A stretch of DNA of 59,206 nt from a bacterium. Its GTDB lineage: Bacteria; Zhuqueibacterota; Zhuqueibacteria; Residuimicrobiales; Residuimicrobiaceae. A program made the translations under genes and the position numbers. The DNA is taken from positions 1-59,206 of the forward strand of contig DAIQOA010000004.1 in assembly GCA_036788095.1 (NCBI GenBank), written 5' to 3'. The number at the start of each line of letters is the position of its first letter. Position 1 is the stretch's first letter. Shown here one piece after another: positions 19,054-36,714 of the stretch. The notes under the pieces were generated by a model. That model had not been told where the DNA came from. It saw only the letters and a program-made list of their open reading frames with translations, and did no database searches.

Positions 19054-19178
19054 ATCACTTTACTGTCCAAAGACTTGATCGAAAAAAAATGAACCGGGGC
19101 ATTCAGCCCTGGGCGGGAACGCTGCGGTAATAAAATCACTGCAGCTGGATACATTTAAAACGAATGAGGAGAAAAAAC

Positions 19179-19922
19179 ATGCATACCATTAAACGGTTGT
19201 TGGGGCTGGCGATTGTCACCGGTCTGCTCGTCTCCACCTCCCCCCTCCTTGCCCAGGGACAAGGTCAGGGTAAAAAAGACAAATCCGCTGTAGAGCGTAA
19301 AACCGACAAAAAGGGGCAGGGTCATAAAAGTCAACAGGATCAACCCGGTCAGAGTCAGGTTGAAAAAGGAAAACACGACAAAGAACGGCCTGCCGGCTGG
19401 GACAAGGGCAAGAAAGAGGGTTGGGATAGCGACGTTCCGCCAGGCTGGGAGAACTGGGACGACGCTAAGAAAAGCAAATGGCAGGGGGATCTGCAACAGG
19501 CCAAAGATAAAGTGCGCGCCAAGGGTAAAAGCGGCAAAAAACGCAACCAGGCGGAGATGGACAGTGCCTGTGTCGCCCTGGAACAGGGGGCAAGGGCAGG
19601 TATTCCCATAGAAGAGGTCGAGGGTGTGGTCGAAAAAAGTCTGGAAAAGGGATTAAAAGGCAGGGAGCTCCAGGCCGCCACCCACGCCATGGCGCGCGGC
19701 GCCAGACAGAGCGTTGAAACCACCTCCATGGCTGCTTTTGTTCATCAGAAACTGGACGAAGGGCTGAGAGGGGACGCTCTTTCAACCCAGATCGAGGCTG
19801 AGATTGAAAGGCGTCACGCCGACAAGGTAAAGGCGGATGAATCGGCGGCGAAAACGGCTCAGGAGGCCCTCGAGAAGGAAAAAGCCGCCAAGTCTAAAAA
19901 ATGGTGGGAGTTCTGGAAATAG
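19179..19922 (+). CDS. Secreted Lys/Glu-rich hypothetical protein
   Basis: GAGGAG SD, signal peptide ending LLA-Q, GQGQG and PAGW/PPGW low-complexity segment, helical C-terminus. Confidence 0.75.
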   Translation: MHTIKRLLGLAIVTGLLVSTSPLLAQGQGQGKKDKSAVERKTDKKGQGHKSQQDQPGQSQVEKGKHDKERPAGWDKGKKEGWDSDVPPGWENWDDAKKSKWQGDLQQAKDKVRAKGKSGKKRNQAEMDSACVALEQGARAGIPIEEVEGVVEKSLEKGLKGRELQAATHAMARGARQSVETTSMAAFVHQKLDEGLRGDALSTQIEAEIERRHADKVKADESAAKTAQEALEKEKAAKSKKWWEFWK

Positions 19923-20070
19923 CTGTTATGATTCCGCCCAGGGAAGCTTTTACCTGGGCGGTCGTCAAAAACGCAATCCGGGGGATTGCACCACTGGAAT
20001 TCACCACGCAACGGTGTAACTTGTACAATAAAGCCGGTCGTTTGGGCATCTCTTTCCTAAGTGATATAGA

Positions 20071-21171
20071 TCACCAACAACCGTTCGCCCAACGATAAAA
20101 AATCTTTAGCTTATTTCCGTGCGGCATGGCTAGAAAATGATCATGCTGTAATCTGCCGACCAGTATACCCGGCGCCAAATCGATTTTTCGGGAAAATTGG
20201 ACGATATAATCAAGTGATCGTCGATTCCAAGTGCGGCAGAAAGTCTGATATGCGATCGGCGGAATGAGGATTTCGCGAGCGAATTTATTTGCCTCCTCTT
20301 CTTTTTCATCATTTTGCTCCATGCCTTCGAGAAAGATTTCCTTTTTGCCATGCTTTAAAATATGGCCGGCTTCGTGGAAAAAGGTGAACCACAATTGGTC
20401 ATTGCTTTTATATCTCAGGCTGAGTTGAATGACGGCTTTATTGCCAAGCCAACGAGTAGCGCCGCAGACCTGCATTTTAGGCAATTCCGGAATAAAAAGC
20501 ACAATGACGCCGCAGGCTCCACAGAGGTTTTGGAGCTGCTTACAGAAGCTACCGGGATGGGGTTCTTGGGTTAATTTACGGATTTCCATTAGATTTTTTT
20601 GAAATAGCTTTTGATCATATGGATCACATTGGTTTTTTTCCGCCTCTAATTCGCCTTTGCGCAGCCAGGCGGCAATGCTTTCTTTAGAGGGTTGAAATTT
20701 TGAATTCCGGCGAAAGGCTATGGCCGGGCGTTCAGACCAAACCAAGCTCCATTGTTCAGGTGAAGCAACGCCGAAAAAGCGCAGGATCTGATCCAGTTGG
20801 TATAATTTGTCCCCGCTGTTCTCAATCCAACCTAACTTGATCATGGATTTTACCGGAAATTTCGCAAGCCAGTCTAACCGGCTTTTCCGGCGCTCCAATT
20901 CCTCCACCCGTATGCGGTTTTCCTGATATTGACACTCCAAGCTATTCCAAAAATGTGCCGGTCGACCCAGCACGAGTTCGAGCTTGAAGGCAGATTCCGG
21001 GGTTATAGGGGATTTGCCCTGAATGATCTCGTTGATGGTTTTTTTCGACAACCCGGTTCGGGCGGATAAATCCGCCTGGGTCATTTGCCGTTCGTCCAAA
21101 TAATCCTGCAGGATTTCTCCCGGCTTGACAACATAGTCCGGAAGGTATTGATTTTTTTCTTGTTTAATCAT
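20071..21171 (-). CDS. higA: HigA-family antitoxin (XRE HTH) fused to ImmA/IrrE-type metallopeptidase domain
   Basis: PGEIL...MTQADLSARTG...INEIIQGKSPIT...FWNSLE HTH; FFHEAGH (HExxH) and EEEANKFA. Confidence 0.85.
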   Translation of the reverse strand: MIKQEKNQYLPDYVVKPGEILQDYLDERQMTQADLSARTGLSKKTINEIIQGKSPITPESAFKLELVLGRPAHFWNSLECQYQENRIRVEELERRKSRLDWLAKFPVKSMIKLGWIENSGDKLYQLDQILRFFGVASPEQWSLVWSERPAIAFRRNSKFQPSKESIAAWLRKGELEAEKNQCDPYDQKLFQKNLMEIRKLTQEPHPGSFCKQLQNLCGACGVIVLFIPELPKMQVCGATRWLGNKAVIQLSLRYKSNDQLWFTFFHEAGHILKHGKKEIFLEGMEQNDEKEEEANKFAREILIPPIAYQTFCRTWNRRSLDYIVQFSRKIDLAPGILVGRLQHDHFLAMPHGNKLKIFYRWANGCW

Positions 21172-21517
21172 GGGTATCCTCCACGCCGAGGATCAAAATT
21201 GCGGTCACCTTGGCCCAATCAAGCCCTCCATCGGGCTTGACAGGGATCGGATCATGGAAAGGAGTAAAAATCAAGCGATAGGGGTGGTCTAAATCCAGCG
21301 ACAATTGAAATTTGCCGGATCGCTTCCCTTCAGTGAGTTCGTGACAGCGACCCGGCCCTGAGTAGGGCGGCCAGAAATCATACAAGTTATTTGCGGCACG
21401 CAGTTCCGCCATGCGTTTTTTAATTTTATCGGCTTGACGTGCGCCATGCTTGCGCTGCAATAACGCGCCGTTATTGAATTCTTTGCTGATCTTGGCGTTT
21501 GTGAAATATACGTCCAT
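21164..21517 (-). CDS. higB: HigB/RelE-family 'killer' toxin
   Basis: RCHELTEGKRSG...SLDLDHPYRLIF...ILGVEDTH, typical of plasmid-maintenance killer proteins; overlaps higA start. Confidence 0.85.
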   Translation of the reverse strand: MDVYFTNAKISKEFNNGALLQRKHGARQADKIKKRMAELRAANNLYDFWPPYSGPGRCHELTEGKRSGKFQLSLDLDHPYRLIFTPFHDPIPVKPDGGLDWAKVTAILILGVEDTHD

Positions 21518-21539
21518 TTTAATTCCGAATCAAGCTTTT

Positions 21540-21562
21540 TTATTAACCTAATAGGTTAATAA
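21540..21562. promoter_or_regulatory. Palindromic operator upstream of higB (probable HigA site)
   Basis: TTATTAACCTA-A-TAGGTTAATAA, perfect 11-bp arms, 23 bp upstream of the higB start. Confidence 0.7.
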
Positions 21563-21720
21563 TATTTTTAAGTCGCTTTCTGCTAAAATCCCGGGTCGTA
21601 CTCAAAAGAGGTAAACAATGTTCAGGAGTACTATTTTTGTCTTTGACGACACGATGATGCGCTGAACAGCGCTCATCAAAGGACAGTCAATTAACTTTGT
21701 ATCATAATGCAGTCAATCCC

Positions 21721-23442
21721 TTACCTGTGATCTGCAGGGTGCATCTGCAAAGCGGCCTGAATCTTTTTTCCAGCAGTCAGTTCCGCAACCAGGGCGTTGA
21801 GCAGCTTTTCTCCGGCGGCGCGGGAGGCGGCGAGCTGCCTTTCCAACTCGTCCACCAGGGTCATCAGTTGATCCACTTTGGCGACGATGCGGTGCTGTTC
21901 GGGGAGAGGGGGAATGGCTATTGGCAGCTGCTTCAGCTTGGATGCTTTTATTCCTTTGGCAGTTATGCCAGTTCCATTCTTATCCAATATAAATTTAAAT
22001 TCTTCGCTCAGAATCTGATTAACTAAAAAAGAAGAGTCGATAGCCCCATAGCTCTGAAAACAGATGACTCGTTGTGCTAAAGCGAATCGTTCTTTCAGCT
22101 CGACGACAGCTGCGTTACCCATCGGTGCTTCAGTAGTAAAAAGGACGTCACCCCGCTTCGGAAAACCACGTGTCATCCATTCATGATAATCGCTCTCAGA
22201 TAAAAACTCCTCGGGAAAAAGGTCAATCTGGTTTTTGCGAACGTTCTTTGCGGTGAGCAACCGTATACCCTTAGATAATTTCACTGGTGTTTTCCCTCTG
22301 TAATCAACAAACAGTACAAGGTCAGTCAGTGCACGCCATGACCAGGGGTTCGGAATTTTCCATCGATCATCTGCAGACAATAATCGTTGATTATCCTTGA
22401 CTGCTCGATGGTCATATGCTGCTTTTTTCCGCCGCTGCTCATCGTTTCGTGTGAGCAAGTCATCCACCGACTCATCATGAGGATCTTGAGGGACGAGTTT
22501 GCCCTGGACGGCGAGGGTGAGGATGGTTTTACGCAGGTCGGCAGGAGTGATGAAGTACGAGGAGGGGCTTTGTGCCTCTGTGCCTTTGTGAGAAACCTGC
22601 TTTAATTTTCTCACGGAGGCACGGAGGCACGAAGAGGGGTAGAACAAGAGTTCAAGGTTGACGGGTGTTGGCGCATTAGCGAAACGAGCTAAAGACGCGC
22701 GGGCCAGCGCCGACTTTTTTTCCTCCCGTTCCTTCTGCTCCGCCTCCAGCCTGTCACATAACGCCATCAGCTCATCCACCTTGGCCACAATCCGTTTCTG
22801 CTCAGCAAGGGGCGGAATCACAATAGGAGCAGATTCTAAATCTTTGGTTCCAAGTCGTGGCATTTTCATGCCGTAGTTTTTTGCTGCGGCGTAACGAAGA
22901 AAAGTCGTAGATCGAAGAAAAAACCGAAGAAAATCGGGAGAAAGAAAATTTAAAGGCCTGAGTGGGATAATCTCGGTTGTACAATAACCTGCTTTGGGGG
23001 CAATCACGACCTTATTCAAATACGGGCGAAGTTTTCCGTACAATACATCGCCAGCTTGAAAAGCTGCCTTCGTACTTCGCGAGCGCCGATCGTAAAATTT
23101 AGCAGTTTGGATTATGGCACCGGTTTCACCGTTAATGTCCTCTAAATCAAGCACCCATGCGTCATCAGGAATAGTCGATGGGGAAACTTTTGCAGCGGCT
23201 CGACACTCGGCCGATGCTTGTAATGTTGCCCACCACCATCCCACTGGTGCTGGATAAGGAACCCCACTCTCATCTATTGCCTCTCCGTACCTCTGTGCCT
23301 TTGTGAGAGATTTTTCACATCCCTCTTGTGCGACCAGTTTCCCTCGCACCGCCAACTCTAGCACCAACTCCCGCATCCTCTTCACCGCACCGGGCGCTTC
23401 AGCGAAGAGGTCAAACTTTTCAAATAGGGTTTCTAGGATCAT
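21721..23442 (-). CDS. hsdS: Type I restriction-modification specificity subunit with two in-frame repeat segments
   Basis: Two TRDs (GDVLYGKLRPYL; GDVLFTTEAP) and repeated PPLxEQxRIVAKVDxLM conserved regions; ATG at 23442 (MILETLFEKF). Confidence 0.93.
   Translation of the reverse strand: MILETLFEKFDLFAEAPGAVKRMRELVLELAVRGKLVAQEGCEKSLTKAQRYGEAIDESGVPYPAPVGWWWATLQASAECRAAAKVSPSTIPDDAWVLDLEDINGETGAIIQTAKFYDRRSRSTKAAFQAGDVLYGKLRPYLNKVVIAPKAGYCTTEIIPLRPLNFLSPDFLRFFLRSTTFLRYAAAKNYGMKMPRLGTKDLESAPIVIPPLAEQKRIVAKVDELMALCDRLEAEQKEREEKKSALARASLARFANAPTPVNLELLFYPSSCLRASVRKLKQVSHKGTEAQSPSSYFITPADLRKTILTLAVQGKLVPQDPHDESVDDLLTRNDEQRRKKAAYDHRAVKDNQRLLSADDRWKIPNPWSWRALTDLVLFVDYRGKTPVKLSKGIRLLTAKNVRKNQIDLFPEEFLSESDYHEWMTRGFPKRGDVLFTTEAPMGNAAVVELKERFALAQRVICFQSYGAIDSSFLVNQILSEEFKFILDKNGTGITAKGIKASKLKQLPIAIPPLPEQHRIVAKVDQLMTLVDELERQLAASRAAGEKLLNALVAELTAGKKIQAALQMHPADHR
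22557..22639. repeat. Hairpin element (R arm 22568-22595 + L arm 22607-22634) inserted in frame in hsdS
   Basis: 28-bp inverted arms with 4 transition mismatches and an 11-bp loop; flanked by ACGAGGAGGGG (22557) / ACGAAGAGGGG (22629), exactly 72 bp apart. Confidence 0.85.
23281..23310. repeat. R arm of the CACRRAGG repeat inside 5' hsdS
   Basis: CTCTCCGTACCTCTGTGCCTTTGTGAGAGA; shares an exact 19-mer (CCTCTGTGCCTTTGTGAGA) with 22575-22593. Confidence 0.85.
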
Positions 23443-23463
23443 AGCATTTCCATACAAGCTATT

Positions 23464-23526
23464 CTCTCACAAAGGCACAAAGCCCACAAAGAGTTTCTCC
23501 TCTATCCCTTTGTGCCTCTGTGAGAA
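23464..23526. repeat. L+R arm pair in hsdM-hsdS intergenic region
   Basis: CTCTCACAAAGGCACAAAGCCCACAAAG ... CTTTGTGCCTCTGTGAGAA; 17/18 inverted match. Confidence 0.85.
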
Positions 23527-23536
23527 CAGATTTTCT

Positions 23537-24991
23537 TCATCTATTGAGCGCTTCCATGAGCTGCGCTTTCAGCTTTCCACGGGTTTCCGCTATCTGCGCC
23601 AGCAACTTTTCGTATTCGGGCAGAAGGTGGTCCACATCACCAGGACCCTCGTCGTCGTTATGCGGATTCTTAAGATCGAGGTTATAGTTGCCGGCCTTGA
23701 TCTGGTCGATGGACACGCGCCAGGCGAATTCGTTTTCCTCTCGCGTCTTGTAGCCGTCGGTCTCACTGCCCCACCAAACTCTCTCCGGCTCGAACTCTTC
23801 GATGCGAATGGGTTTGGTCTTGTTGTAGCTCTTGGCTCCGGCTGGATAGGGGTGCTCGTAATACCAGACTGTTTGCGTCGGCGCGCCCTTGGTAAAAAAG
23901 AGCAGGTTGGTGCGGATGCCGGTGTAGGGATTAAAGACGCCGTTGGGCAAACGAACAATGGTGTGAAGGTTGCATTCGTTGAGCAATGCCTCTTTGATCC
24001 GGGTTTTGACGCCTTCGCCAAAGAGGGTGCCGTCGGGCAAAACCAGACCGGCGCGGCCGCCGGGTTTAAGTATCTTCATCAGCAGCACAAGGAAAAGATC
24101 AGCGGTTTCGCGGGTGCGGAACTCGGATGGAAAGTTGGACTCGATGCCATCCTCCTCCATGCCGCCAAAAGGCGGATTGGTGACAATCACGTCCACCCTC
24201 TCCCTTGGCCCCCAATCTCGCAGAGGCCGGGCCAGGGTGTTGTCGTGACGCACGTTGGTGGGCACATCAATGCCATGTAGAAGCATATTGGTCATGCACA
24301 GGATGTGGGGAAGATGCTTTTTCTCGATGCCGGAGAAACACCCCTGAATGGTGCGCTCGTGGGCCGCGGTCTTGGCCTGCTTGCGCAGGTGGTCGATGGC
24401 GCAGACGAGAAATCCGCCGGTACCGCAGGCGGGATCGAGGACGGTCTCGCCGAGACGGGGATTGACCTGCTCGACAATAAACCGGGTGACGGCACGCGGG
24501 GTGTAAAACTCTCCGGCATTGCCCGCGGACTGGAGGTCCTTGAGGAGCTTTTCGTAGATGTCGCCGAAGAGGTGGCGGTCGTCGGAGGCGTTAAAGTCAA
24601 TGCCGTTGATCTTGTTGATCACCTGGCGCATGAGGGTGCCGTTTTTCATATAGTTATTGGCATCCTCAAAGGCGGTGCGGATGAGCGCATGCATCCGGTC
24701 GCCGCCGGTCAGGGCTTTCAGCTTGAGCAGCAGGGTGTTGTTGACAAAGTCAAGCAAGGCGTCGCCGGTGATGCCTTCCTCGTCCTTGGCCCAGGTGGAC
24801 CAGCGCAGGTGTTTCGGCAGCGGGGATTTGTAGCTGTCGCGCAACAGCGTCATCTCTTGTTCCCGGTCGTCAAAAATTTTCAGAAACAACATCCAGCCGA
24901 GCTGTTCCAGACGCTGGGCATCGCCGTAGGTGCCGGCATCTTTGCGCATAATATCCTGAATGGTTTTGACGATGTTGGAAATGTTGGGCAT
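23537..24991 (-). CDS. hsdM: Type I restriction-modification methyltransferase (N6-adenine)
   Basis: GEFYTPR, DPACGTGGFL, TNPPFGG; start at MPNISNIVKTIQ with GGAGG SD. Confidence 0.95.
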   Translation of the reverse strand: MPNISNIVKTIQDIMRKDAGTYGDAQRLEQLGWMLFLKIFDDREQEMTLLRDSYKSPLPKHLRWSTWAKDEEGITGDALLDFVNNTLLLKLKALTGGDRMHALIRTAFEDANNYMKNGTLMRQVINKINGIDFNASDDRHLFGDIYEKLLKDLQSAGNAGEFYTPRAVTRFIVEQVNPRLGETVLDPACGTGGFLVCAIDHLRKQAKTAAHERTIQGCFSGIEKKHLPHILCMTNMLLHGIDVPTNVRHDNTLARPLRDWGPRERVDVIVTNPPFGGMEEDGIESNFPSEFRTRETADLFLVLLMKILKPGGRAGLVLPDGTLFGEGVKTRIKEALLNECNLHTIVRLPNGVFNPYTGIRTNLLFFTKGAPTQTVWYYEHPYPAGAKSYNKTKPIRIEEFEPERVWWGSETDGYKTREENEFAWRVSIDQIKAGNYNLDLKNPHNDDEGPGDVDHLLPEYEKLLAQIAETRGKLKAQLMEALNR

Positions 24992-25001
24992 TAAATATCC
25001 T

Positions 25002-25157
25002 CCCACAAAGGCACAGAGACACAAAGTTCATTAATCACTATGGATGAATCGGCTATTGTTTCATTCACCTTGGCGCCTTTGTGCCTCCGTGAGAAACATC
25101 AAGCCGAGGAATGATTGGACTCAGGATCACCTCTCACAGAGGCACGGAGGCACAGAG
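25002..25157. repeat. Three arms (L 25002-25026, R 25069-25096, L 25131-25157) between hsdM and the GxxExxY gene
   Basis: Same TCT-(CACRRAGG)x3 consensus in alternating orientation. Confidence 0.85.
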
Positions 25158-25569
25158 TATTTCATAAAACGCCATTGATGATACGGGTGATGCCCTCTTT
25201 CATGAGTTCATCCCCAAAATTCAGGAGATAACCCAACTTGTAACCGGTCAGCCGTAAATAGGTCAGCAGCTGTTTCTTGTGAGCAGGACTCACCTTCTCC
25301 ACTGATTTCAACTCGATAATCACTTTGCCGTTTACGATCAAATCAGCCCGAAAGCCTTCATCAAAACTCAATCCCTCGAACACGATGGGCACGGGTGCCT
25401 GCCGCTTGACCGTCAGGCCGGCTTGCTCGAGCTTGCGCGCCAAAATGGTCTCATAAACGGTTTTGAAAAACCCGGGACCAAGAGCCTGATGTAATTTTAC
25501 CGCTTGATCCACAATGATTGATCCAATATTATTTTCATTCATCTTGGCGCCTCCGTAACGCTGTGAGAG
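25131..25569. mobile_element. Putative 439-bp element: GxxExxY gene bounded by inverted repeat arms
   Basis: L arm 25131-25157 and degenerate R arm 25543-25569 (about 20/27 inverted match) abut the gene ends. Mobility is inferred, not shown. Confidence 0.5.
25162..25542 (-). CDS. GxxExxY family protein (PD-(D/E)xK nuclease fold)
   Basis: 126 aa; LHQALGPG..., RADLIV...IIELKSV..., QLLTYL...GYLLNF; the signature reads GFFKTVY. Confidence 0.9.
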   Translation of the reverse strand: MNENNIGSIIVDQAVKLHQALGPGFFKTVYETILARKLEQAGLTVKRQAPVPIVFEGLSFDEGFRADLIVNGKVIIELKSVEKVSPAHKKQLLTYLRLTGYKLGYLLNFGDELMKEGITRIINGVL

Positions 25570-25578
25570 CCGTTTATG

Positions 25579-27948
25579 TTAAGCGGCCTTTGCATAAAGG
25601 GCTGTTTCGAGCTCACGAACGGCATCAAGGTAGCGCTCGCGGCTACCGAAAAAGTTGATAATTTCCACCGGCGTGCCAAAAGAAGTAAGCGGGTCGACCT
25701 TGAGGATTTCCATTGATTCGACACTGGCAATGCCGCTATCAGCATACTTAAACAGAAGCGCGTCAAGAACGGCGCGGGCCTGGTCGCCGTACTTGGCAAA
25801 GACATGCCGTTTCCTCACCCTTTCCGCACGTTCCCGGCGCGTGAGCGGCGGCTGATCAAAAGCGACATGACAAACAAGATCAAAGGGATCATAATTGCGG
25901 CCAACCTGCTCTGCAAGCTCGTCGAAAAAGACACCCTGATTGACGAGCTCCTCGATAACCGCCTGCTTTTTATCGGCATGGTTCCAGGTGGTTAGGAAGG
26001 CGTCGAGGGAGGCGTAATTTTTGCGCACGGACTTGCGCGCATAGTCCATGAGAGATTCAGTGATGAGTCTCCCGTATTCATCCAGGTATTGGATGCGCTC
26101 CATGACCACACTAACTGGAACGCTGTCCACCACGTAGCGGATATGCGGTTGGGGAGATTCGCCGCCGAGATCAGAACCGGGCAGCAGCGGAGGGTTGATA
26201 GATTCGCCACCCGGCGAGGGATCTGTGCGCGGATCGTCCGGAGGTACGGACGGCTCACCAGGGCCAGGCTCGTAAATCTGCACAGGATCACCGTCAAAAG
26301 TGGGATCGGCAAACAAGGCAGTGGCGCGACGAAAATCCATAATGGTAAAATAAAACTTGTTATAATCCTCATTGATACGGGTGCCGCGTCCGATGATTTG
26401 CTTGAACTCGGTCATCGAATTGATGATCCGGTCAAGGACGATCAAGTGGCAGGTCTGTGCATCCACGCCGGTGCTCATCAGGCGGGAAGTGCAGGCAATG
26501 ACCGGGTAAGTGGACTCGGGATCGATAAAGTTATCGAGCTGGGCCTTGCCCTCTTCATTATCTCCGGTGATGCGCATCACGTACCTGGAGTTGGCGGCGG
26601 CAAGGTCGGCGTTGTTGTTGACTAAAGCCTGACGCATACGTTCCGCGTGATCAATGTTCTCGCAGAAGATGATGGTTTTGGCGAAGCGATCGGTGGCGCG
26701 GAGAAATTCAGTCACTCTGGCGGCCACCGTCTCGGTTCGCTTTTCAAGCACGAGATCCCGGTCGAAATCGCGATCATTGTATTCCCGATCCACAATGACC
26801 TGGCCGTATTTGTCGGTCTGGCCAATTTCCGGCCGCCAGCCGCCAAGGTCCTTGTCAAGGCCGATGCGCACGACCTTGTATGGGGCGAGAAAACCATCCG
26901 CGATGCCCTGGCGGAGTGAATAGGAATACAGTGGCTCGCCAAAGTATTCGATGTTGGAGATATCACGAGTCTCTTTGGGCGTGGCGGTGAGACCAATCTG
27001 AGTGGCCGTGGTGAAATACTCCAGCACCCGACGCCAGCGCGCGTCATCCGCTGCACTGCCGCGATGACACTCATCCACGATGACGAGATCAAAGAATTCG
27101 GGTGAAAACTGCTTGTAGATGTTCATCTCCTCTTCCGTGCCGGTTACGGCCTGGTAGAGGCTCAGATAGATTTCATAGGATTTATCGATCATGCGGTGGG
27201 TGATCTTGGTCATGGCTTTGCCGAACGGTTTGAAGTCATTGGTCTTGGTCTGATCGGCAAGGATATTGCGGTCCACGAGAAAGAGGATGCGCTTCTTCGC
27301 ACCGGCCTTCCACAGCCGCCAGATGATTTGGAATGCCGTGTAAGTCTTGCCCGTGCCGGTGGCCATGACCAACAAGATCCGGTTTTCGCCTCTGGCGATG
27401 GCATCGACGGATCGATTGATCGCGATGTGCTGATAGTAACGCGGAGCCTTGCCGGAGCCGTCGTCGTAATAGTCCTGGATATTGACCTGTTGCTGGTTAT
27501 CGGTCCAGCCTTTTGCCGTGCAGTAGCGCTGCCACAGTTCTTCGGGCGCAGGGAATTGGTCGAGGGGGATCTCGCGGGTGACCCGGCCGCCGGTTGCGGT
27601 GCGGTCGTGCTCAAGAAAAGCATCGCCATTAGAGCTGTAGGCAAAGGGCACATCGAGAATTTCGGCGTATTCGAGCGCCTGCTGCATGCCATCGCCGACT
27701 GCATGGTTGTTGTCTTTGGCTTCGATGACGGCAATCGGAATGTTGGGTTTGTAGAACAGCAGGTAATCCGCCTTCTTCGCCTCCCCTCGCCTCACCGTCT
27801 TGCCGCGGACCATGACGCGGCCTTTGGTAAAATAGGCCTCTTCGTGGATCTGGGTCATCAGGTCCCATTTGCCGCTGTTTGCACCGGCCAGTGCGGGTGT
27901 GATGAACTTGGTGCGGATATCGGCTTCCGTGAAGTATTTTTTTTTCAT
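25579..27948 (-). CDS. hsdR: Type I restriction enzyme R subunit (EcoAI/EcoEI-like)
   Basis: ADY...IEAK nuclease motif, MATGTGKT, DECHRG, STGVD, QIIGRGTR, EcoEI-type C-terminus; start at MKKKYFTEADIR. Confidence 0.95.
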   Translation of the reverse strand: MKKKYFTEADIRTKFITPALAGANSGKWDLMTQIHEEAYFTKGRVMVRGKTVRRGEAKKADYLLFYKPNIPIAVIEAKDNNHAVGDGMQQALEYAEILDVPFAYSSNGDAFLEHDRTATGGRVTREIPLDQFPAPEELWQRYCTAKGWTDNQQQVNIQDYYDDGSGKAPRYYQHIAINRSVDAIARGENRILLVMATGTGKTYTAFQIIWRLWKAGAKKRILFLVDRNILADQTKTNDFKPFGKAMTKITHRMIDKSYEIYLSLYQAVTGTEEEMNIYKQFSPEFFDLVIVDECHRGSAADDARWRRVLEYFTTATQIGLTATPKETRDISNIEYFGEPLYSYSLRQGIADGFLAPYKVVRIGLDKDLGGWRPEIGQTDKYGQVIVDREYNDRDFDRDLVLEKRTETVAARVTEFLRATDRFAKTIIFCENIDHAERMRQALVNNNADLAAANSRYVMRITGDNEEGKAQLDNFIDPESTYPVIACTSRLMSTGVDAQTCHLIVLDRIINSMTEFKQIIGRGTRINEDYNKFYFTIMDFRRATALFADPTFDGDPVQIYEPGPGEPSVPPDDPRTDPSPGGESINPPLLPGSDLGGESPQPHIRYVVDSVPVSVVMERIQYLDEYGRLITESLMDYARKSVRKNYASLDAFLTTWNHADKKQAVIEELVNQGVFFDELAEQVGRNYDPFDLVCHVAFDQPPLTRRERAERVRKRHVFAKYGDQARAVLDALLFKYADSGIASVESMEILKVDPLTSFGTPVEIINFFGSRERYLDAVRELETALYAKAA

Positions 27949-28517
27949 TGGTTGTCCGGCCGCCTTTTCCTTGCCAAAAGATGACATCCCTATCATAGAC
28001 TTTTTATTCCCGACTACTGATTCATCCCTGCCTTATGAATGCACAGCCGCTCAGCATAAACATAGACCCCACCGTCAAGGCAGCGCCACGAGGGATCCCG
28101 CCCAGTGATTTTGCACCCTCCTAAAAACAAACTTGATTCGTTTGCCGGCCCACTCACCGCCGGGCCTTAACGACGATCATCAAAAGCATGTTGCTATGCG
28201 CGTTTGGAATGTCCGGGTCGAGCGATAATAGAAAAAAAGCGCAATCCAGTCCACACCATGAACTCGACCGCGCTCTTCTCCTCTCGAACCCCTCCCGGTA
28301 TTCTTCGGCTAATTTTTTAATGTTACAAAAAATGACGGCAAAAATCAAGAAAATTGGCAAAAGAGCACTTTTTGACGTTCATAAAAAAAAGCATTACAAA
28401 CCCGAGCTTTTCACGTTCTTCATTGAACTACCGCGGACAAAAACCGGTGGTTCGCGATCTCAGTCAAAGGAACCACTGGGTCTCCTTCTTTAGCATGAAT
28501 GCTCTGCCGGCGCCGTC

Positions 28518-30869
28518 TCACTTGACAAGACTCTCCAGCCAGATCTCTCCGACCTCCCCCGCCCGCGGCTTGTACTTGACCTCCACGTTAGCCCTGCTCA
28601 ACGCCGCTAGTCGCAACTCTTCCGCCGAACAGACGATGCCGGTCGTCAAGCCGACTTGCGCCTGTTTTTTCATCTCCTCATCCACCTTGTTCAGCAGTGG
28701 ATGGGCACAGACCCGACTCATCTCGGTTAAAACCACGGCGCGCATACGCTGCTGGCTGCTCGCGGCAGGTTTTTGTGTAAACAGCCAGGTGACTGCCTTT
28801 TCAAGGATACGGCGAAAGGGACCGCGCGTCAGAGTGCAATCTTGGCGGACAAAAGCCAACACGGCAGCGCAGGTCCATTCCAACGCATCTTCACCCTCAC
28901 CCCAGCTGCCATCGGCCTTTTGACTTCGGGCGAGGCCAGCCAGGAAATTCTTCCGCGAAGAAGGCTGCTGAAAGGTATCCTCTCTAATCGCAAAAAACGT
29001 TGATGCGACCGAACGCTGTGAAAAGAGTTTCGCGTTGTTGCGGTAAATGGAATTAAACAATTTTCCTTCCGCTATAAAACCCCTCCTCTCCAAATCCCGC
29101 GGCAGCGGCACCGCCACCTGAAGCCGCTTCGCCGGCGCCGTTGAAACCACCTCCTCCTGCACGGCTATCAGGGAGGTGAAATCGGTGACCAGATGGTGTT
29201 CCACGGCCAGGCTGATAATTTCGTCCCGGTATTCCGACGAACGCTTGGGTTCGATATGGAGCTGGTCAAGTAGAGCATCGATGCGGGCTTTGGCCCAGAT
29301 GCGCAGAATCGCTTCATCGCGACCCTGGGCAGCAGACAGACGCAGGCTTCTCTCCCACTCTGCGCTGCCGCAACGGCCGGAAAGAATCAACCGGGCCTCG
29401 GCTGCAGGATGAAATTTGGCGCAGAGTTGCAGAGGCTGACCATAATAAAGATCCGGCAGCTTGGCAGGCAGCACATCCCAGGCGGTGGTCCCTTGCCAAC
29501 GCAGACGCAGATCGGTGAGCAAGGGATAGGAGAGGCGGTCGTGGAAACGGATGATCGCAGCTTCTATATCCTCATCAAGCTGGAGAAACTCGCCGGCGCC
29601 GCGGCCCAGCCGCGCCAGGCTGCTGAGAAAGGCACGGTTGACTGAGGGGCCGATGCCAAAGGTGAAAAGGCGAAAGTCGCGGATGCCCCGCCGAACTCGC
29701 TCCAGCACCTCCTTTTCGGCGGAGACAGCCCCATCGGTGAAAAAGACGATGTGGCGTTGGCGCTGGTCATCCACCGGCAGCTCGAGAGCGGCCTCCAAGG
29801 CCTCGCCGATCTCGGTGCCGCCGCGGGCAACGATCCGCCCAAGCCAACGATCCGCCCGCTCCAGGCTCTCCTGGCTGTAAGCTGCCGGGCTCCGGTCGAA
29901 CCACTCCAACGAGGTGTCGAACGCGAGCAGTAAAAATGTGTCCTGCGAGCGCAGGGTGCGCAATCCGGAAGAAAGGGCGTTGGCCGCCTGGTGCAGTGGC
30001 TCGCCCATCATGGATCCGGAACGGTCGAGGACAAAAACAAACTCACGCGGCGGCGCGTTCGCCTCAACCGGCTGGCTATTGGGCACCAGGGTCACCAGGG
30101 CGGTGGCAGCGCTGCCGTTGGCGGAAACCCACACCGGGCACTGCACCTCCTGATCCGTCAGCCGGTAGCGCAGGACAAAGTCGCGATCCGGGATTTGCTC
30201 GCCCGCCAGCTCGATCTCGCAGCGGCGCGCATCACGGCGAGTTACCTGCAACGAATGGGAGGGACTGAAAGGATCGTCCATGGCCTGGCCCGCATCGAGG
30301 TCGACGTGCAGGTGGACTCTGCCGATCTCCTCGCCCGGCAGGGCCAGGGGCGAATCGGTCGCCTCCGCCGACACTCGATCTTGATGATATTTGGGCGTAA
30401 TCCCCATGGGGAAAACCCACTCGTAGCTGTTCTCGATGAACGAGAGGGGCTGTTGATAGCGAATCACCGCCGTGATATCATCCCCGGGCTGGACGTTGGC
30501 CAGCAAAAGAGCTAAAAGATTGGGCCGCCGCTCTTCAAAAAGGCCGGCGTGTTTGCCGCTGTGCAGCGCCTGTTCATAGCGCTCTTGCGCCGCCTCTGTT
30601 GTTTGCACCTCCGCGGTCACTGTGGCCTCGCCGATGCGAAATTCAAAGTCGTGAATGGCGCCGTTCTCCGGCAGCGGAAAGAGGTACTCTAGTTCCAATG
30701 GGCGGTCAAACGGATTGTGGTAACTCTGGGTCACCGTCACCTCGGCCACTGGTCCGAAAATGCGCGCCGCCACCGCGGTATGGCGCAGCGGCAGGCTCGA
30801 GGCCTCGGGTTGCTTGGTCAGGAATAATCCTCCAAAAGGCCGCTCTTTCATTGCAAACGATTCGGGCAT
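28518..30869 (-). CDS. VIT + von Willebrand factor A domain protein
   Basis: VIT (VTVTQSYHN...EYLFPLPENGAIHDF), MIDAS DRSGSM...T...FTDG, GIG; C-terminal QKADGSW helical repeat; GGAGG SD before ATG 30869. Confidence 0.9.
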   Translation of the reverse strand: MPESFAMKERPFGGLFLTKQPEASSLPLRHTAVAARIFGPVAEVTVTQSYHNPFDRPLELEYLFPLPENGAIHDFEFRIGEATVTAEVQTTEAAQERYEQALHSGKHAGLFEERRPNLLALLLANVQPGDDITAVIRYQQPLSFIENSYEWVFPMGITPKYHQDRVSAEATDSPLALPGEEIGRVHLHVDLDAGQAMDDPFSPSHSLQVTRRDARRCEIELAGEQIPDRDFVLRYRLTDQEVQCPVWVSANGSAATALVTLVPNSQPVEANAPPREFVFVLDRSGSMMGEPLHQAANALSSGLRTLRSQDTFLLLAFDTSLEWFDRSPAAYSQESLERADRWLGRIVARGGTEIGEALEAALELPVDDQRQRHIVFFTDGAVSAEKEVLERVRRGIRDFRLFTFGIGPSVNRAFLSSLARLGRGAGEFLQLDEDIEAAIIRFHDRLSYPLLTDLRLRWQGTTAWDVLPAKLPDLYYGQPLQLCAKFHPAAEARLILSGRCGSAEWERSLRLSAAQGRDEAILRIWAKARIDALLDQLHIEPKRSSEYRDEIISLAVEHHLVTDFTSLIAVQEEVVSTAPAKRLQVAVPLPRDLERRGFIAEGKLFNSIYRNNAKLFSQRSVASTFFAIREDTFQQPSSRKNFLAGLARSQKADGSWGEGEDALEWTCAAVLAFVRQDCTLTRGPFRRILEKAVTWLFTQKPAASSQQRMRAVVLTEMSRVCAHPLLNKVDEEMKKQAQVGLTTGIVCSAEELRLAALSRANVEVKYKPRAGEVGEIWLESLVK

Positions 30870-30930
30870 AACACCCCTCCATTGCATATAATCAAATTCC
30901 CTGCCGTCCTCATGACAGCATGACAAACCT

Positions 30931-31347
30931 CTAATCCGCAAAGATGATTGCGGCCTCTTCGAGCAAGCGCAACACCTGCTTGCGCACCTCGGCCGTCGCG
31001 CGGGCGTCCACTATCAGCTCGACGCCGGGCGCCAGGGTATAACGCAACAGGTTCTGAGCCTGTCGGCGCACCGATTCGTTTTCTTGGCGTTGCGTCTGCG
31101 CGGCATGCAGTAGCTCCTCCAGCTGGGACATCGTTCGCTGCTGAAACTCGGCGCGGATTTCGTCCAGCCGCAATCCGCGCCGGCGCAGCACCGGAATGGC
31201 CGCGAGCCGGATCAGGTGCTCTGCAGAGTAGCGGGCTGCGAGACCGGCCCCAACAGGCGCCGGCAGCAGGCCCTGCTGCACATAAAAGTGGATTGTACGT
31301 CGCGGTACGCCGCTTCTCTCTATCAGTTCATTGATATCGATTTCCAT
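30931..31347 (-). CDS. MerR-family HTH transcriptional regulator
   Basis: INELIERSGVPRRTIHFYVQQGLLPAP...RYSAEHL...GLRLDEI. Confidence 0.9.
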   Translation of the reverse strand: MEIDINELIERSGVPRRTIHFYVQQGLLPAPVGAGLAARYSAEHLIRLAAIPVLRRRGLRLDEIRAEFQQRTMSQLEELLHAAQTQRQENESVRRQAQNLLRYTLAPGVELIVDARATAEVRKQVLRLLEEAAIIFAD

Positions 31348-31370
31348 ACTTTTTCCTTAATATTTACACT

Positions 31371-31401
31371 ATAATATATCACTGTTATATTTAAATGTCA
31401 A
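31371..31401 (-). promoter_or_regulatory. Promoter of merR-VIT/vWA operon with palindrome between -35 and -10
   Basis: TTGACA (31396-31401); TATATT at 17 bp or TATTAT at 19 bp; imperfect palindrome AATATAtCAcTGtTATATT at 31373-31391. Confidence 0.65.
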
Positions 31402-31575
31402 GATAAAAACATAGAATAATCAGTCACTCGACTGTAGACTATGCCGGAATATAAAACAGAGGCTTTTAATTTATAAATCAACTCAAATTTGTGGCCTGGC
31501 TCCCAAAGCTACAGCTTCCGCGCAGAGGACGATTCTTACGGCATTGGAGAAAGCATGGTCCATCATCACTCATCA

Positions 31576-31612
31576 TTGGTAATTTTACCATAGAGTATGG
31601 TATCATTACCAT
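31576..31612. promoter_or_regulatory. Doublet of ATGGTA-N4-TACCAT palindromes (21-bp period)
   Basis: TTGGTAATTTTACCAT at 31576 and ATGGTATCATTACCAT at 31597. Confidence 0.5.
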
Positions 31613-32146
31613 GCTGGTATCGGATAGATGAAGCCTCCTAGTCCGGTCAGCGGTTATAAGTTTAAATATTTTAAAACAGAGCGCCCTATCAGCAATGACG
31701 GCTTTTACTATTATCCTTGGCATTTGTTTTGCAAAAAGGATCGTATGCCATTCAGGACCGGTTTGTCGGTCAGCTGTTCCGGACCAGGATAGGTCGATAG
31801 TATACATATCGCCATCACGTTTGCAAAAGCCGCTATCTTTTCGATATACAAGTCTTGGTTGGTACAGATACTCTTCCAAAAAGTAGCGGTAGAGTTTCTG
31901 GGGTGGAGTGAATTAAATCTCACCCAAAGCAGCATCTCGCGGCTTAAAAGTTCTGTGCACCGTTAGGTTGCCATCATGGTGACTGGTGGCTCATCGCATA
32001 CTTTGCGTAGAACGCTTTAGCCGCTCCAATATTCAACACTGTTTTAATTATTTGTACGACATTCCGGTTTTTTTATAGGCCGTCCTAAAAAGTGGTGAAT
32101 GCGTGGAGTGCCGTTTTTCTGTTAATTAAAAGAAAGGAGCCGTACC

Positions 32147-32626
32147 ATGGGACCACAGATACCTGCAAACTTGATTGCCAATAAAACCCTTGGCAAGGGA
32201 AAAGCAACTATCAAAATACCCAGCAGATCTGATAGCACCCATTCCGGAGCTTTCAATGTCTCGATTAACGTTCATTTCGATCCTGTCGTCGATCCCTATC
32301 CTGCCGGCACGGTAAAAATCACCATTGATCTGTCCGATTCATTCTGCGGGGTTCTCACCTCAACCATGCTTTTCCACCTCAGCTCCACAGGCAAACACAC
32401 ACCGACCATGTATCTGTCGGGCCGATGCACGTTGACATCAACCACTCCTAGGCCTCTTACACACAAGTGTCAGTTTTGGCTTTCCGTGGCCAATAACAAG
32501 CGTACAAGAGATTTAATCAATTCGGATATTGTCAGCTTTTTGGTAGTAGATAAAAGCGGCACCCGCGTTGCTTATGGTACGGGACCCATTATCCAAGGAA
32601 CCGTTCATGTTCAAGCCTTTTGCTGA
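32147..32626 (+). CDS. Hypothetical beta-rich protein (159 aa)
   Basis: AAGGAG SD; natural composition (GKHTPT, DIVSF...RVAYGTGP); function not recognised. Confidence 0.75.
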   Translation: MGPQIPANLIANKTLGKGKATIKIPSRSDSTHSGAFNVSINVHFDPVVDPYPAGTVKITIDLSDSFCGVLTSTMLFHLSSTGKHTPTMYLSGRCTLTSTTPRPLTHKCQFWLSVANNKRTRDLINSDIVSFLVVDKSGTRVAYGTGPIIQGTVHVQAFC

Positions 32627-32770
32627 GCGTTGAATATAAATTCCCGACCAAATTAAAAGCAGAAGTAACCTACGTTCGTTCCCAAGGGCCGTTGCACACT
32701 CGCCTTATCTGGTTGGCTTCAAACAACTGCTGCTGTTGGAATAGCGGGCGATTTTTAAGAGGACGGTATT

Positions 32771-33487
32771 ATGCCGACGGGAGACGATTTGATTCGTCTA
32801 GCCGAAACCAGATTGGGTGAAAAATATTGCAGCGTGCGTGTTCCTAAAAACAATTCAAACTGGCATGGTCCCTGGGATTGCGCCGAGTTTGCGTCCTGGC
32901 TGGTTTTTCAGGTAATGGGTGAGCTTTACGGTTGTATCGATAACGCGGTGGATCCCGCCGTGGCGGAGGCTCATTCCGGCGCCTGGGCTAGAGACGTCGA
33001 GGAAAATCGTTTAATCCGCTCTAACCCGGTCGAAGCGAATCATTATCCCGGAATGGTGCTGGTTCGCAAGCCCCCATTACCTGGTTTCATGGGGCATATT
33101 GCTATAACCGATGGCTATGGCAAAACGATCGAAGCAGCCGGCAAGGTTTTGGGGGTTCGTCGCTGCTCCGTCGAGGGGCGACATTGGGATTATGCCGCCA
33201 GGATTCCCGGTCTGTTGTATACATCAACCGGCCATATCGAGGCGGTCCGGCCTTTGCCTCTACTGCTTAAATGGACGAGCCCACCGATGGCCGGCTCTTT
33301 AGTGCTCAAAGTCCAAGAGGCTCTTTCTCGAGCGGGCATGGATCCCGGCGCACTGAATGGGGAGTATGGACCTCATACGCTTGCGGCGGTGTACGCTTTT
33401 CAGAGCATGAACGCACTGGTCCCAGATGGGATGGTCGGTCCTAAAACCGCAAAAAAACTGGGCATCGAGTGGCCAGGGACTTGCTGA
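32771..33487 (+). CDS. NlpC/P60-CHAP-like peptidoglycan hydrolase with C-terminal PG_binding_1 domain
   Basis: WDCAEF (Cys) and GHIAI (His) catalytic pair; VQEAL...G.YGPHT..AV..FQ...L..DG.VGPKT binding domain. Confidence 0.8.
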   Translation: MPTGDDLIRLAETRLGEKYCSVRVPKNNSNWHGPWDCAEFASWLVFQVMGELYGCIDNAVDPAVAEAHSGAWARDVEENRLIRSNPVEANHYPGMVLVRKPPLPGFMGHIAITDGYGKTIEAAGKVLGVRRCSVEGRHWDYAARIPGLLYTSTGHIEAVRPLPLLLKWTSPPMAGSLVLKVQEALSRAGMDPGALNGEYGPHTLAAVYAFQSMNALVPDGMVGPKTAKKLGIEWPGTC

Positions 33488-33590
33488 GGCGACAGATTTT
33501 CAGCAGGGGGGATTTTTTTTTGAATCAATAGCGGTGCTTGCCGATAGGCTCGCTCCATGAAAAAACGACGACAAGCATGGCGCCCTTCGC

Positions 33591-34346: not shown

Positions 34347-34435
34347 CGTCCTGATTTGTTTAATGACGTCCCTTCATCGCCGCTGACACGTGTTTTAGCG
34401 GCGACCGCCCCTACCAAGTTCAGCGCATTCGCTTT

Positions 34436-36604: not shown

Positions 36605-36714
36605 TTTTCCACTCCTTGATCGGCTTCAGACAACCGATTCTAATGACTCCCCGCCATCTGAAGAGGCGGCTTTCTCCACTCCCCAACATTCCAGATTTTT
36701 GCTCAGCGGACACG

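What the first reader, a model, noticed from the sequence alone, without database searches (positions are those of the whole stretch)
22557..22639. 72-bp in-frame palindromic insertion in the HsdS inter-TRD region, with an 11-bp imperfect direct repeat
Seen: FYP-SSCLRASVRKLKQVSHKGTEAQSP-SSYFITPADLRK. The 24 extra codons are an R-L hairpin bounded by ACGAGGAGGGG / ACGAAGAGGGG exactly 72 bp apart, which resembles a target-site duplication, and the frame is preserved. Established: central conserved-region length in HsdS can set recognition spacer length (EcoR124I/II TAEL repeats), and palindromes inserted in frame in genes are known from Rickettsia RPEs. Inference: the insertion may be tolerated in a loop, may retune spacing, or may excise precisely. 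The R-L (end-to-end) geometry also resembles a circle junction.
Basis: partly seen in the sequence, partly recalled or inferred. Interest (0 to 1): 0.75.

Follow-up and report, generated by a model that had tools for sequence, protein, structure and literature searches.

The report
Mobile palindrome inserted in-frame in HsdS
A 67-base palindrome sits in frame inside the specificity gene of a type I restriction system as a floppy surface loop, and it is a gene-less copy of the inverted repeats that flank small 'GxxExxY' nuclease-like genes in many bacterial phyla.

Summary
hsdS (21721-23424, minus strand) carries a 67-nt palindrome at 22568-22634: two 28-nt arms and an 11-nt loop, flanked by a 5-bp direct repeat. 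About 115 of the 120 closest HsdS homologues have a clean 25-residue gap at this point.

AlphaFold2 places the insert in the only low-confidence internal segment. It is a loop after the central coiled-coil helix, not part of that helix. A change in recognition spacing is therefore unlikely.

The arms match a sharply bounded 27-28-nt unit, tCTYY-GTGCCTYY-GTGCCTYY-GTGAGA. This unit occurs in more than 118 genome contigs from many phyla. In a sample chosen by protein alone, such arms flank PDDEXK_3/GxxExxY genes: 66% have one upstream, 72% downstream, against 1.7% of control segments. The window's R-M operon holds one such cassette, two ORF-less remnants and a solo arm inside hsdS. There are none elsewhere in the 59 kb.

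The same insertion is present in two diverged loci with different TRDs, so it is old, stable and compatible with function.

Best reading: a tolerated, RPE/MITE-like in-frame copy of an apparently undescribed repeat family. How it moves, and whether the arms act as RNA or as DNA, is not known.

The parts
22568..22634 (.). The 67-nt palindrome of the finding. On the gene (minus) strand it reads S arm 22634-22607 (CTTCGTGCCTCCGTGCCTCCGTGAGAAA), loop 22606-22596, A arm 22595-22568 (TTTCTCACAAAGGCACAGAGGCACAAAG). It encodes SCLRASVRK-LKQV-SHKGTEAQS in frame.
22563..22567 (.). Copy of the 5-bp direct repeat (AGGGG on +, CCCCT on the gene strand) abutting the palindrome on the TRD2 side.
22635..22639 (.). 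Second copy of the 5-bp direct repeat, abutting the palindrome on the TRD1/central-helix side.
21721..23424 (-). hsdS, 567 aa from the ATG (MILETLF...), carrying the insert at residues ~263-288. PF01420. Predicted fold matches solved HsdS subunits.
23287..23310 (-). Solo A-type arm in frame in the N-terminal linker of hsdS (encodes KSLTKAQRY). The same arm is in L005 (857-880).
23464..23526 (-). ORF-less arm pair between hsdM and hsdS, in A-20 nt-S geometry. It is absent from the close relative L005, where hsdM and hsdS overlap (ATGA).
23537..24991 (-). hsdM (N6_Mtase, HsdM_N).
25000..25095 (-). Likely cassette remnant: A arm (25095-25075), then 42 nt that look like the first and last codons of a GxxExxY ORF (VNETIAD...SIVINE, by eye), then S arm (25024-25000) just before the hsdM start.
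   Evidence: Clearer deletion derivatives elsewhere:
25131..25569 (-). Complete cassette: degenerate A arm (25569-25543), PDDEXK_3/GxxExxY ORF (25542-25162, 126 aa), S arm (25157-25131).
25579..27996 (-). hsdR (ResIII, EcoEI_R_C), first gene of the operon.

Best explanation
The insert is a gene-less, palindromic copy of the inverted-repeat arms that normally flank small GxxExxY (PDDEXK_3) genes.

Each arm is a discrete unit of about 27 nt built from three octamers and ending in GTGAGA. The usual unit is arm, ORF, arm with the TCTCAC and GTGAGA ends outward. Internally deleted and ORF-less versions also occur, so the family behaves like an autonomous element with MITE-like derivatives.

Inferred history: one arm pair, in the junction orientation, entered hsdS once, in the linker that follows the central coiled-coil helix. 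It survived for three reasons. The added length is a multiple of three. The arms have no stop codon in that frame. The 24 extra residues form a disordered surface loop.

It was then inherited with the central conserved region while TRD1 and TRD2 were exchanged around it. I infer that it does not change recognition specificity or spacer length.

The arms stay far more conserved than the surrounding coding DNA. This points to a constraint at the nucleic-acid level. The likeliest are a long RNA stem of the kind that encloses the GxxExxY ORFs, or homogenisation against the other arm copies in the same operon. Which of these applies, and how the arms move, is inferred and not shown.
For: Identity of the element:
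- Both arms match the 22-nt core GTGCCTYYGTGCCTYYGTGAGA exactly, 0 expected by chance.
- The core occurs in more than 118 contigs of GTDB species genomes from Planctomycetota, Verrucomicrobiota, Lentisphaerae, Chloroflexaceae, Treponema, Bacteroidota, Desulfobacteraceae, Geobacter, Thiotrichales and others.
- A position matrix of 132 copies shows conservation that stops sharply at the arm ends.

Link to GxxExxY:
- PDDEXK_3 is the most recurrent family among 165 neighbouring ORFs. It lies next to arms in 11 loci plus the window.
- In 76 PDDEXK_3 genes picked by protein similarity alone, 50 have an A-type arm within 80 nt upstream, 55 an S-type arm within 100 nt downstream, and 39 have both. Controls: 5 of 286 segments.
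- Upstream and downstream arms of the same gene pair better than arms of different genes (-33 vs -26 kcal/mol, p = 2e-4).
- Deletion derivatives that keep both ORF ends exist: L111, L085, L017.

Tolerated loop:
- AlphaFold2 mean pLDDT is 88.7. Residues 264-287 are below 50 and lie between helix 254-261 and helix 294-306.

Single old event:
- The position, the 67-nt length and the flanking repeat (CCCCT; four of the five bases in L001) are shared by the window, L005 and L001, and 6 of 11 loop bases are shared between the window and L001.
- These loci are 75-91% identical. L005 has an unrelated TRD2 and L001 an unrelated TRD1. All three ORFs are intact.

Arm conservation:
- Window vs L001 differ at 4 of 56 arm positions, against about 25% in the flanks and 5 of 11 in the loop.

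Generality:
- A second in-frame case lies in the hypervariable linker of a Treponema acyl-CoA dehydratase activase (P0177). A sister arm type occupies the same linker in P0178 and P0184.
Against: - The hsdS copy has the minority geometry: GTGAGA and TCTCAC ends face each other (26 adjacent pairs against 79 of the usual kind). How a lone junction-type hairpin gets inserted is unexplained.
- No consistent target-site duplication was found in the family, so ordinary transposition is not shown.
- No mobility event was caught in the act. PDDEXK_3 has no demonstrated activity.
- Most arms in the arm-selected loci (about 100 of 118) have no GxxExxY gene nearby.
- The protein-level central region is too conserved to confirm that insert-bearing alleles form one clade.
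- Neutrality for specificity rests on a structure prediction, not on a methylome.
- In the hsdS hairpin all arm differences are wobble-compatible on the antisense strand, not the mRNA strand. The passenger model does not predict this.
Confidence: 0.72

Rival explanations
1. The hairpin is kept because it acts on RNA. A stem of about 28 bp inside the hsdS message, or in an antisense transcript, would be cut or bound (for example by RNase III). This would lower or split hsdS expression, as the stems around GxxExxY ORFs may insulate those ORFs from the host operon.
For: - The arms are much better conserved than the flanking coding DNA and than the loop.
- Strong predicted stems form on both strands.
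- In GxxExxY cassettes the mismatches favour G:U on the sense strand (50 vs 29, p = 0.024; 20 genes vs 6).
- Cognate arms co-vary.
- The A arm carries GGAG and abuts the ATG of the ORF.
Against: - There are no expression data.
- The wobble bias is modest.
- In hsdS the perfect stem is on the antisense strand.
- No promoter-like or terminator-like site lies at the palindrome.
- Arm conservation could equally come from gene conversion among the nine arm copies in the operon.
Confidence: 0.2
2. The arms are recombination sites that shuffle or switch hsdS modules. This could be TRD exchange, inversion, or precise excision between the flanking direct repeats.
For: - Arms bracket the modules of the operon. 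On the gene strand an A arm precedes TRD1 and the S-loop-A pair follows the central helix, in the window, L005 and L001.
- Insert-bearing alleles carry three different TRD combinations.
- A short direct repeat flanks the insert.
Against: - The TRD-swap breakpoints lie in conserved coding sequence about 95 nt and about 180 nt away from the arms, not at them.
- No second hsdS copy and no recombinase was found among the larger ORFs of the surrounding island that were scanned.
- The insert is stable in three diverged loci.
Confidence: 0.07
3. The insert lengthens the inter-TRD spacer and so changes the number of unspecified bases in the recognition site, as the 12-bp repeats do in EcoR124I/II.
For: It lies between the two TRDs, next to the central conserved region.
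Against: - It lies after the 45-residue central helix, not inside it. That helix (206-250) matches the C-terminal one (507-550) in length.
- The insert is predicted to be disordered.
- It is a palindrome, not a tandem repeat.
Confidence: 0.04
4. The gene arose by fusion of two half-size hsdS genes. The palindrome is the former intergenic hairpin.
For: Arm pairs do sit between genes in this operon.
Against: Homologues without the insert are continuous through a conserved motif (NLxFLFHPSYxIxPADLRK). The motif is intact on both sides of the insert, so no sequence was lost or replaced.
Confidence: 0.02

Closest known systems
Rickettsia palindromic elements (RPEs; from memory: Ogata et al. 2000)
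   Same: A short palindromic repeat inserted in frame into a protein-coding gene. It adds a peptide segment at a surface-exposed, structurally permissive place without destroying the gene. It is one copy of a dispersed family.
   Different: No similarity to RPE sequences was looked for. This element is shorter (67 nt against roughly 100-150). It is built from octamer repeats, found in many phyla rather than one genus, and linked to a particular small gene family (PDDEXK_3/GxxExxY).
MITEs and related short repeats (Correia elements of Neisseria, REP/BIME of enterobacteria)
   Same: Short terminal inverted repeats. Many copies, mostly between genes and often inside operons. Internally deleted derivatives of a longer ORF-bearing unit. 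Able to form long stems in transcripts.
   Different: No recognised transposase and no RAYT-type gene was seen. No consistent target-site duplication. The arm sequence is nearly the same across phyla, whereas REPs and Correia elements are lineage-specific.
ORF-bearing intervening sequences of 23S rRNA (stem of inverted repeats around a small ORF, removed by RNase III; from memory)
   Same: A small ORF enclosed by complementary arms that can form a long stem, inserted into a host transcription unit.
   Different: Here the hosts are protein-coding operons and, in this finding, a coding sequence. RNase III cleavage was not tested. The ORF family is PDDEXK_3, not the four-helix-bundle IVS protein.
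Integron attC sites
   Same: Imperfect palindromes at the boundaries of adjacent small gene cassettes. The hsdS copy has this boundary geometry.
   Different: By inspection the arms do not contain the GTTRRRY core (no dedicated search). No integrase or attI was seen among the ORFs scanned. The arms are octamer repeats, and most units are arm-ORF-arm rather than ORF-palindrome.
EcoR124I/II central-region repeats and phase-variable hsdS invertons
   Same: Sequence features inside hsdS between the TRDs.
   Different: It is not a tandem repeat in the helix. There is no partner hsdS and no invertase. TRD-exchange breakpoints do not coincide with the arms.

Membership tests
Octamer-arm repeats flanking GxxExxY/PDDEXK_3 genes (family as defined here) | Arm matches tCTYY-GTGCCTYY-GTGCCTYY-GTGAGA | tested here: met
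   Both arms of the insert match the 22-nt core exactly. The consensus comes from 132 copies.
Octamer-arm repeats flanking GxxExxY/PDDEXK_3 genes (family as defined here) | Two arms in inverted orientation | tested here: met
   28-nt arms, 86% complementary.
Octamer-arm repeats flanking GxxExxY/PDDEXK_3 genes (family as defined here) | Usual geometry: TCTCAC and GTGAGA ends outward, with the ORF or its remnant between the arms | tested here: not met
   The hsdS copy has these ends facing the 11-nt loop. That geometry makes up 26 of 105 adjacent inverted pairs. It recurs just after cassettes: an A-type arm follows the gene within 100 nt in 27 of 76 genes.
Octamer-arm repeats flanking GxxExxY/PDDEXK_3 genes (family as defined here) | A PDDEXK_3 ORF adjacent to the arms | tested here: not met
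   This copy has no ORF. A complete cassette lies 2.5 kb away in the same operon.
MITE | Terminal inverted repeats, small size, no coding capacity, many copies | tested here: met
MITE | Target-site duplication of fixed length | tested here: inconclusive
   A short direct repeat (CCCCT; CCCT in L001) flanks this insert in all three loci. No excess of abutting repeats was found in the usual-geometry pairs. The excess in junction-type pairs is driven by the three hsdS copies and by tandem arrays.
MITE | Related autonomous element encoding a transposase | tested here: inconclusive
   The ORF-bearing form encodes a PD-(D/E)XK-fold protein of unknown activity. It has not been shown to be a transposase.
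Rickettsia palindromic elements | Palindromic repeat inserted in frame in ORFs | tested here: met
   Second host gene.
Rickettsia palindromic elements | Sequence belongs to an RPE family and the host is Rickettsia | not tested
   No RPE sequences were compared. The only source label recovered for proteins clustering (at 90% identity) with window proteins is '[bacterium]'. One window protein has a T9SS sorting domain.
REP/BIME | Association with a RAYT (Y1 transposase) gene; species-specific sequence | tested here: not met
   The same arm occurs in many phyla. No such family recurred among the 165 neighbouring ORFs. RAYT was not searched for specifically.
Integron attC | R/L boxes with GTTRRRY core, adjacent integrase and attI | not tested
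   By inspection the arm consensus lacks that core. No integrase was found among the ORFs scanned in the island. No dedicated search was run.
EcoR124I/II-type spacer-length repeat | Tandem in-frame repeat inside the central coiled-coil helix | tested here: not met
   It is a palindrome, not a tandem repeat. It lies after helix 206-250 in a low-confidence loop.
Phase-variable hsdS inverton | Additional hsdS copy or half-gene, inverted repeats shared between copies, nearby recombinase | tested here: not met
   The window has a single hsdS, and no recombinase was found among the island ORFs scanned.
Type I R-M specificity subunit (HsdS) | Two TRDs, two long conserved helices, Methylase_S domain, hsdM and hsdR in the operon | tested here: met

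The most novel reading that the evidence does not exclude
GxxExxY/PDDEXK_3 genes with their octamer-repeat arms form a previously undescribed, cross-phylum class of selfish cassette. The arms form a stem that encloses the ORF. Cassettes accumulate in tandem inside host operons and decay to ORF-less arm pairs. These arm pairs can themselves move and colonise permissive linkers of proteins in frame. The hsdS insert would be a preserved example that has ridden through several TRD exchanges.
Probability: 0.4. Interest if true: 0.8.

Novelty: new variant of a known kind. Interest (0 to 1): 0.62.

Why it matters
In-frame palindromic insertions in proteins are best known from Rickettsia. This one shows the same behaviour in an unrelated, uncultured bacterium and, by extension, in other phyla. 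The host is a type I specificity subunit, whose architecture is usually thought to be tightly constrained.

The finding also gave a handle on a very widespread repeat that I found described nowhere in the held literature. The repeat explains many odd peptides such as 'SHRGTEAQ' or 'LCLRASV' at the ends of miscalled ORFs in metagenome assemblies. It ties the function-unknown GxxExxY family (TIGR04256, PF13366) to a defined nucleic-acid partner. That makes the family's activity testable.

For R-M biology, the insert marks a site in HsdS that accepts 24 extra residues.

Tried and rejected
- Rfam. No family at gathering score. At E <= 1 only chance matches of the hairpin to microRNA precursor models.
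- Literature. Searches for GxxExxY, PDDEXK_3/PF13366, IVS protein with type I restriction, and the arm sequences themselves found nothing on this repeat.
- Second protein search using the insert peptide. It returned only short HsdS fragments without the insert.
- TRD exchange at the arms. Rejected, because the blastn breakpoints lie in conserved coding sequence.
- General target-site duplication. Not found.
- Promoter or terminator at the palindrome. None.
- Strand-specific wobble in arm pairs of the arm-selected loci. Only a weak excess of one-directional hairpins (22 of 57 against 14.2 expected).
- Monophyly of insert-bearing alleles from the central-region protein sequence. Unresolved, because the region is 82-89% identical across the whole family.
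- Phage carriage. Only 3 hits among the viral contigs.
- Taxonomy of the window. The only source label is '[bacterium]'.
Full report
**1. The observation**

The window carries a type I R-M operon on the minus strand:
- hsdR 25579-27996
- a 126-aa ORF 25162-25542
- hsdM 23537-24991
- hsdS 21721-23424

Inside hsdS, the repeat finder reports inverted arms at 22568-22595 and 22607-22634. They are 28 nt long, 86% complementary, and separated by an 11-nt loop. A direct repeat lies 72 bp apart.

The stretch folds far better than shuffles on both strands. The + strand gives -48.9 kcal/mol (z = -6.6). The gene strand gives -35.2 kcal/mol (z = -6.4). All four arm differences are G:U on the + strand.

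The reading frame runs through the palindrome: FYPSS-CLRASVRKLKQVSHKGTEAQSPSS-YFITPADLRK.

**2. Is it an insertion?**

The 120 best HsdS homologues were retrieved, aligned and scanned for the insert peptides. Only the window's own protein (P0001/P0002), P0006 and P0012 have the segment. All others show a clean gap: LFH-PSY-xIPPADLRK.

At the DNA level, empty sites read TTT CAC CCG TCC TAC GCC ATC (L126) and TTC CAC AAA TCC TAC (L124). The occupied site reads TTC TAC CCC T | CTTCGTGCC...GGCACAAAG | CCCCT CC TCG TAC.

So the palindrome proper is 67 nt. CCCCT abuts it on both sides, giving the 72 bp. The difference from homologues is 25 codons.

**3. Where it sits in the protein**

AlphaFold2 was run on a 94-sequence alignment. 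Mean pLDDT was 88.7 and pTM 0.76.

The only internal segment below pLDDT 50 is residues 264-287, which is the insert. It lies between a short helix (254-261) and helix 294-306. Both come after the long central helix 206-250.

The central helix matches the C-terminal helix 507-550 in length. The model's fold matches solved S subunits, including PacII S, 5ybb and 3okg.

The insert is therefore a loop, not an extension of the coiled coil that sets TRD spacing.

**4. History**

L005 encodes P0006. It is 87-91% identical to the window through hsdM, TRD1, the central region, the palindrome and about 95 nt beyond it. TRD2 is then unrelated. Similarity resumes at the C-terminal region and continues into the downstream genes.

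L001 encodes P0012. It is 75-83% identical in hsdR, hsdM, the central region and TRD2, but TRD1 is unrelated.

The insert has the same position and the same 67-nt length in all three loci, and the flanking repeat is shared (CCCCT in the window and L005, CCCT in L001). Six of the 11 loop bases are shared between the window and L001. I read this as one event, later carried through at least two TRD replacements, with the gene kept open each time.

The swap breakpoints are in conserved coding sequence, not at the arms.

Between the window and L001 the arms differ at 4 of 56 positions. The flanks differ by about 25%, and the loop at 5 of 11 positions.

**5. What the palindrome is**

The arm motif occurs eight times in the window, plus one degenerate copy. 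All copies lie between 22.5 and 25.6 kb.

The exact 22-nt core GTGCCTYYGTGCCTYYGTGAGA was found in more than 118 contigs of the one-genome-per-species collection. The contigs come from many phyla. A matrix of 132 copies shows a unit of 27-28 nt with sharp edges.

The neighbouring genes are ordinary and diverse. The most recurrent family is PDDEXK_3. It lies beside arms in 11 loci. The window's 126-aa ORF belongs to the same family: PF13366 at E = 1e-37 and TIGR04256 GxxExxY.

On the gene's sense strand the arrangement is:
- TCTCAC-RRAGGCAC-RRAGGCAC-RRAG, directly followed by the ATG
- the ORF
- about 10 nt
- CTYY-GTGCCTYY-GTGCCTYY-GTGAGA

**6. An unbiased test of the link**

Eighty loci were fetched from metagenome contigs by PDDEXK_3 protein similarity alone; 76 genes with enough flanking sequence were scored.

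Results for the 76 genes:
- 50 have an A-type octamer arm within 80 nt upstream.
- 55 have an S-type arm within 100 nt downstream.
- 39 have both.
- Controls: 5 of 286 segments taken 500-900 nt away.

The octamer core differs between lineages (GTGCC, GTGTC, GCGCC, GCGTC). Arms of the same gene pair better than arms of different genes (-33 vs -26 kcal/mol, p = 2e-4). Mismatches favour G:U on the sense strand (50 vs 29, p = 0.024).

Units with 60-300 nt between the arms include plain internal deletions of the ORF: L111, L085 and L017.

So there is an ORF-bearing form and a series of decayed forms.

**7. Geometry**

Among adjacent inverted arm pairs, 79 have the TCTCAC and GTGAGA ends outward. 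Another 26 have them facing each other, 16 of these with loops of 7-44 nt.

The facing arrangement is what lies between two neighbouring cassettes. An A-type arm follows the gene within 100 nt in 27 of 76 genes.

On the gene strand the operon reads:
- hsdR
- [A'-GxxExxY-S]
- 35 nt
- [A-42 nt remnant-S]
- hsdM
- [A-20 nt-S]
- hsdS start
- solo A, in frame
- TRD1 and the central helix
- S-11 nt-A, in frame
- TRD2

The A-20 nt-S pair between hsdM and hsdS is absent from L005, where the two genes overlap. Arm content therefore varies between close relatives.

**8. What was not found**

- No consistent target-site duplication in the family.
- No Rfam family.
- No promoter-like or terminator-like site at the palindrome.
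- No recombinase or second hsdS among the island ORFs that were scanned.
- Almost no copies in viral contigs.
- No paper on this repeat in the held library.

**9. Context**

A related genome, L207, is about 90% identical to the window. It lacks window 19.99-39.27 kb, so the R-M operon lies in a strain-variable island.

**10. A second in-frame host**

In a Treponema MAG, an acyl-CoA dehydratase activase carries SHRGTEAQ...LRASVPPCE in a hypervariable linker between its domains. Two relatives carry a sister arm type at the same place. Most of the homologues do not.

**11. Conclusion**

The insert is a tolerated in-frame copy of a widespread arm repeat whose normal partner is the GxxExxY gene.

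Three things remain inference: the arms' mode of action (RNA stem or DNA site), the way they spread, and the neutrality of the insert for specificity.

Noticed in passing
window 25131-25569 (minus strand): A complete GxxExxY/PDDEXK_3 cassette lies between hsdR and hsdM. Its upstream arm is a degenerate GGCGCC-type variant. The downstream arm is canonical.
   Followed up: yes
window 25000-25095 and 23464-23526: Two ORF-less arm pairs sit upstream of hsdM and between hsdM and hsdS. The first seems to keep about 42 nt resembling the first and last codons of a GxxExxY ORF. The second is absent from the close relative L005, where hsdM and hsdS overlap.
   Followed up: partly
window 23287-23310; L005 857-880: A solo arm lies in frame in the N-terminal linker of hsdS (KSLTKAQRY). 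Together with the S arm at 22607-22634 it brackets TRD1 and the central helix in the usual cassette orientation. L001 has arms just upstream of hsdS instead (9885-9985). Whether this bracketing means anything is unexplained.
   Followed up: partly
window 22568-22634; L001 10855-10913; L005 1532-1590: In all three hsdS hairpins every arm difference is a transition that keeps pairing (G:U) on the strand antisense to hsdS and gives C:A on the mRNA strand. The three are not independent, so this may be chance.
   Followed up: partly
L001 7006-7170: Between hsdR and hsdM an arm pair encloses a mini-ORF, MPNVVRSINGTL*. It begins like hsdM and ends like a GxxExxY protein. It is followed by a second arm pair and the real hsdM start. 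About 22 nt, including the hsdM start, are duplicated.
   Followed up: no
window 19992-39266: This stretch has no counterpart in a related genome that is about 90% identical (L207). The relative has 3.3 kb there instead. The island holds the toxin-antitoxin-like pair, the R-M operon, and genes for a VIT/VWA protein, a CHAP/PG-binding protein, a PI-PLC-like protein and a phosphodiesterase.
   Followed up: partly
window 20071-21517 (minus strand): A 117-aa ORF with no Pfam or NCBIfam hit overlaps by 8 nt a 366-aa HTH_3 plus Peptidase_M78 (IrrE-like) protein, just downstream of hsdS. The pair is conserved next to hsdS in L005. It looks like a toxin-antitoxin or defence-associated pair.
   Followed up: no
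window 21721-23457 (P0002 versus P0001): A 382-aa HsdS product starting at MKMPRLG (P0002) is on record for a 59,206-bp contig, the same length as the window. A 3-kb contig with identical sequence gives 565 aa (P0001). The annotation of the long contig probably under-calls the gene.
   Followed up: no
L006, L063, L065, L075; L127-L206: Sister arm types built on other octamers (GCGCC, GCGTC, GTGTC, GTGAC) sit next to each other and next to GxxExxY genes. In some genes the upstream and downstream arms are of different types (L143).
   Followed up: partly
P0179-P0190 (Treponema acyl-CoA dehydratase activase linker): The same hypervariable linker holds other low-complexity peptides, such as GTGNREQ repeats. 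They look like translations of a different 8-nt tandem repeat read through three frames.
   Followed up: no
L053, L059, L094, L095, L107 (Phycisphaerales); L034, L064, L071 (Lentisphaeria): Within single MAGs the arm is embedded in longer repeats that share 30-70 nt on both sides. In those genomes it seems to spread as part of a larger unit.
   Followed up: no
window 19164-19922: A 252-aa lysine/glutamate-rich ORF has no Pfam hit. Part of it (19578-19992) is 82% identical to L207.
   Followed up: no
window 40307-42490: A Peptidase_M28 plus BNR protein carries a type IX secretion C-terminal sorting domain. This hints at a relative of the Bacteroidota-Fibrobacterota-Chlorobiota group. The only source label recovered is '[bacterium]'.
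   Followed up: no
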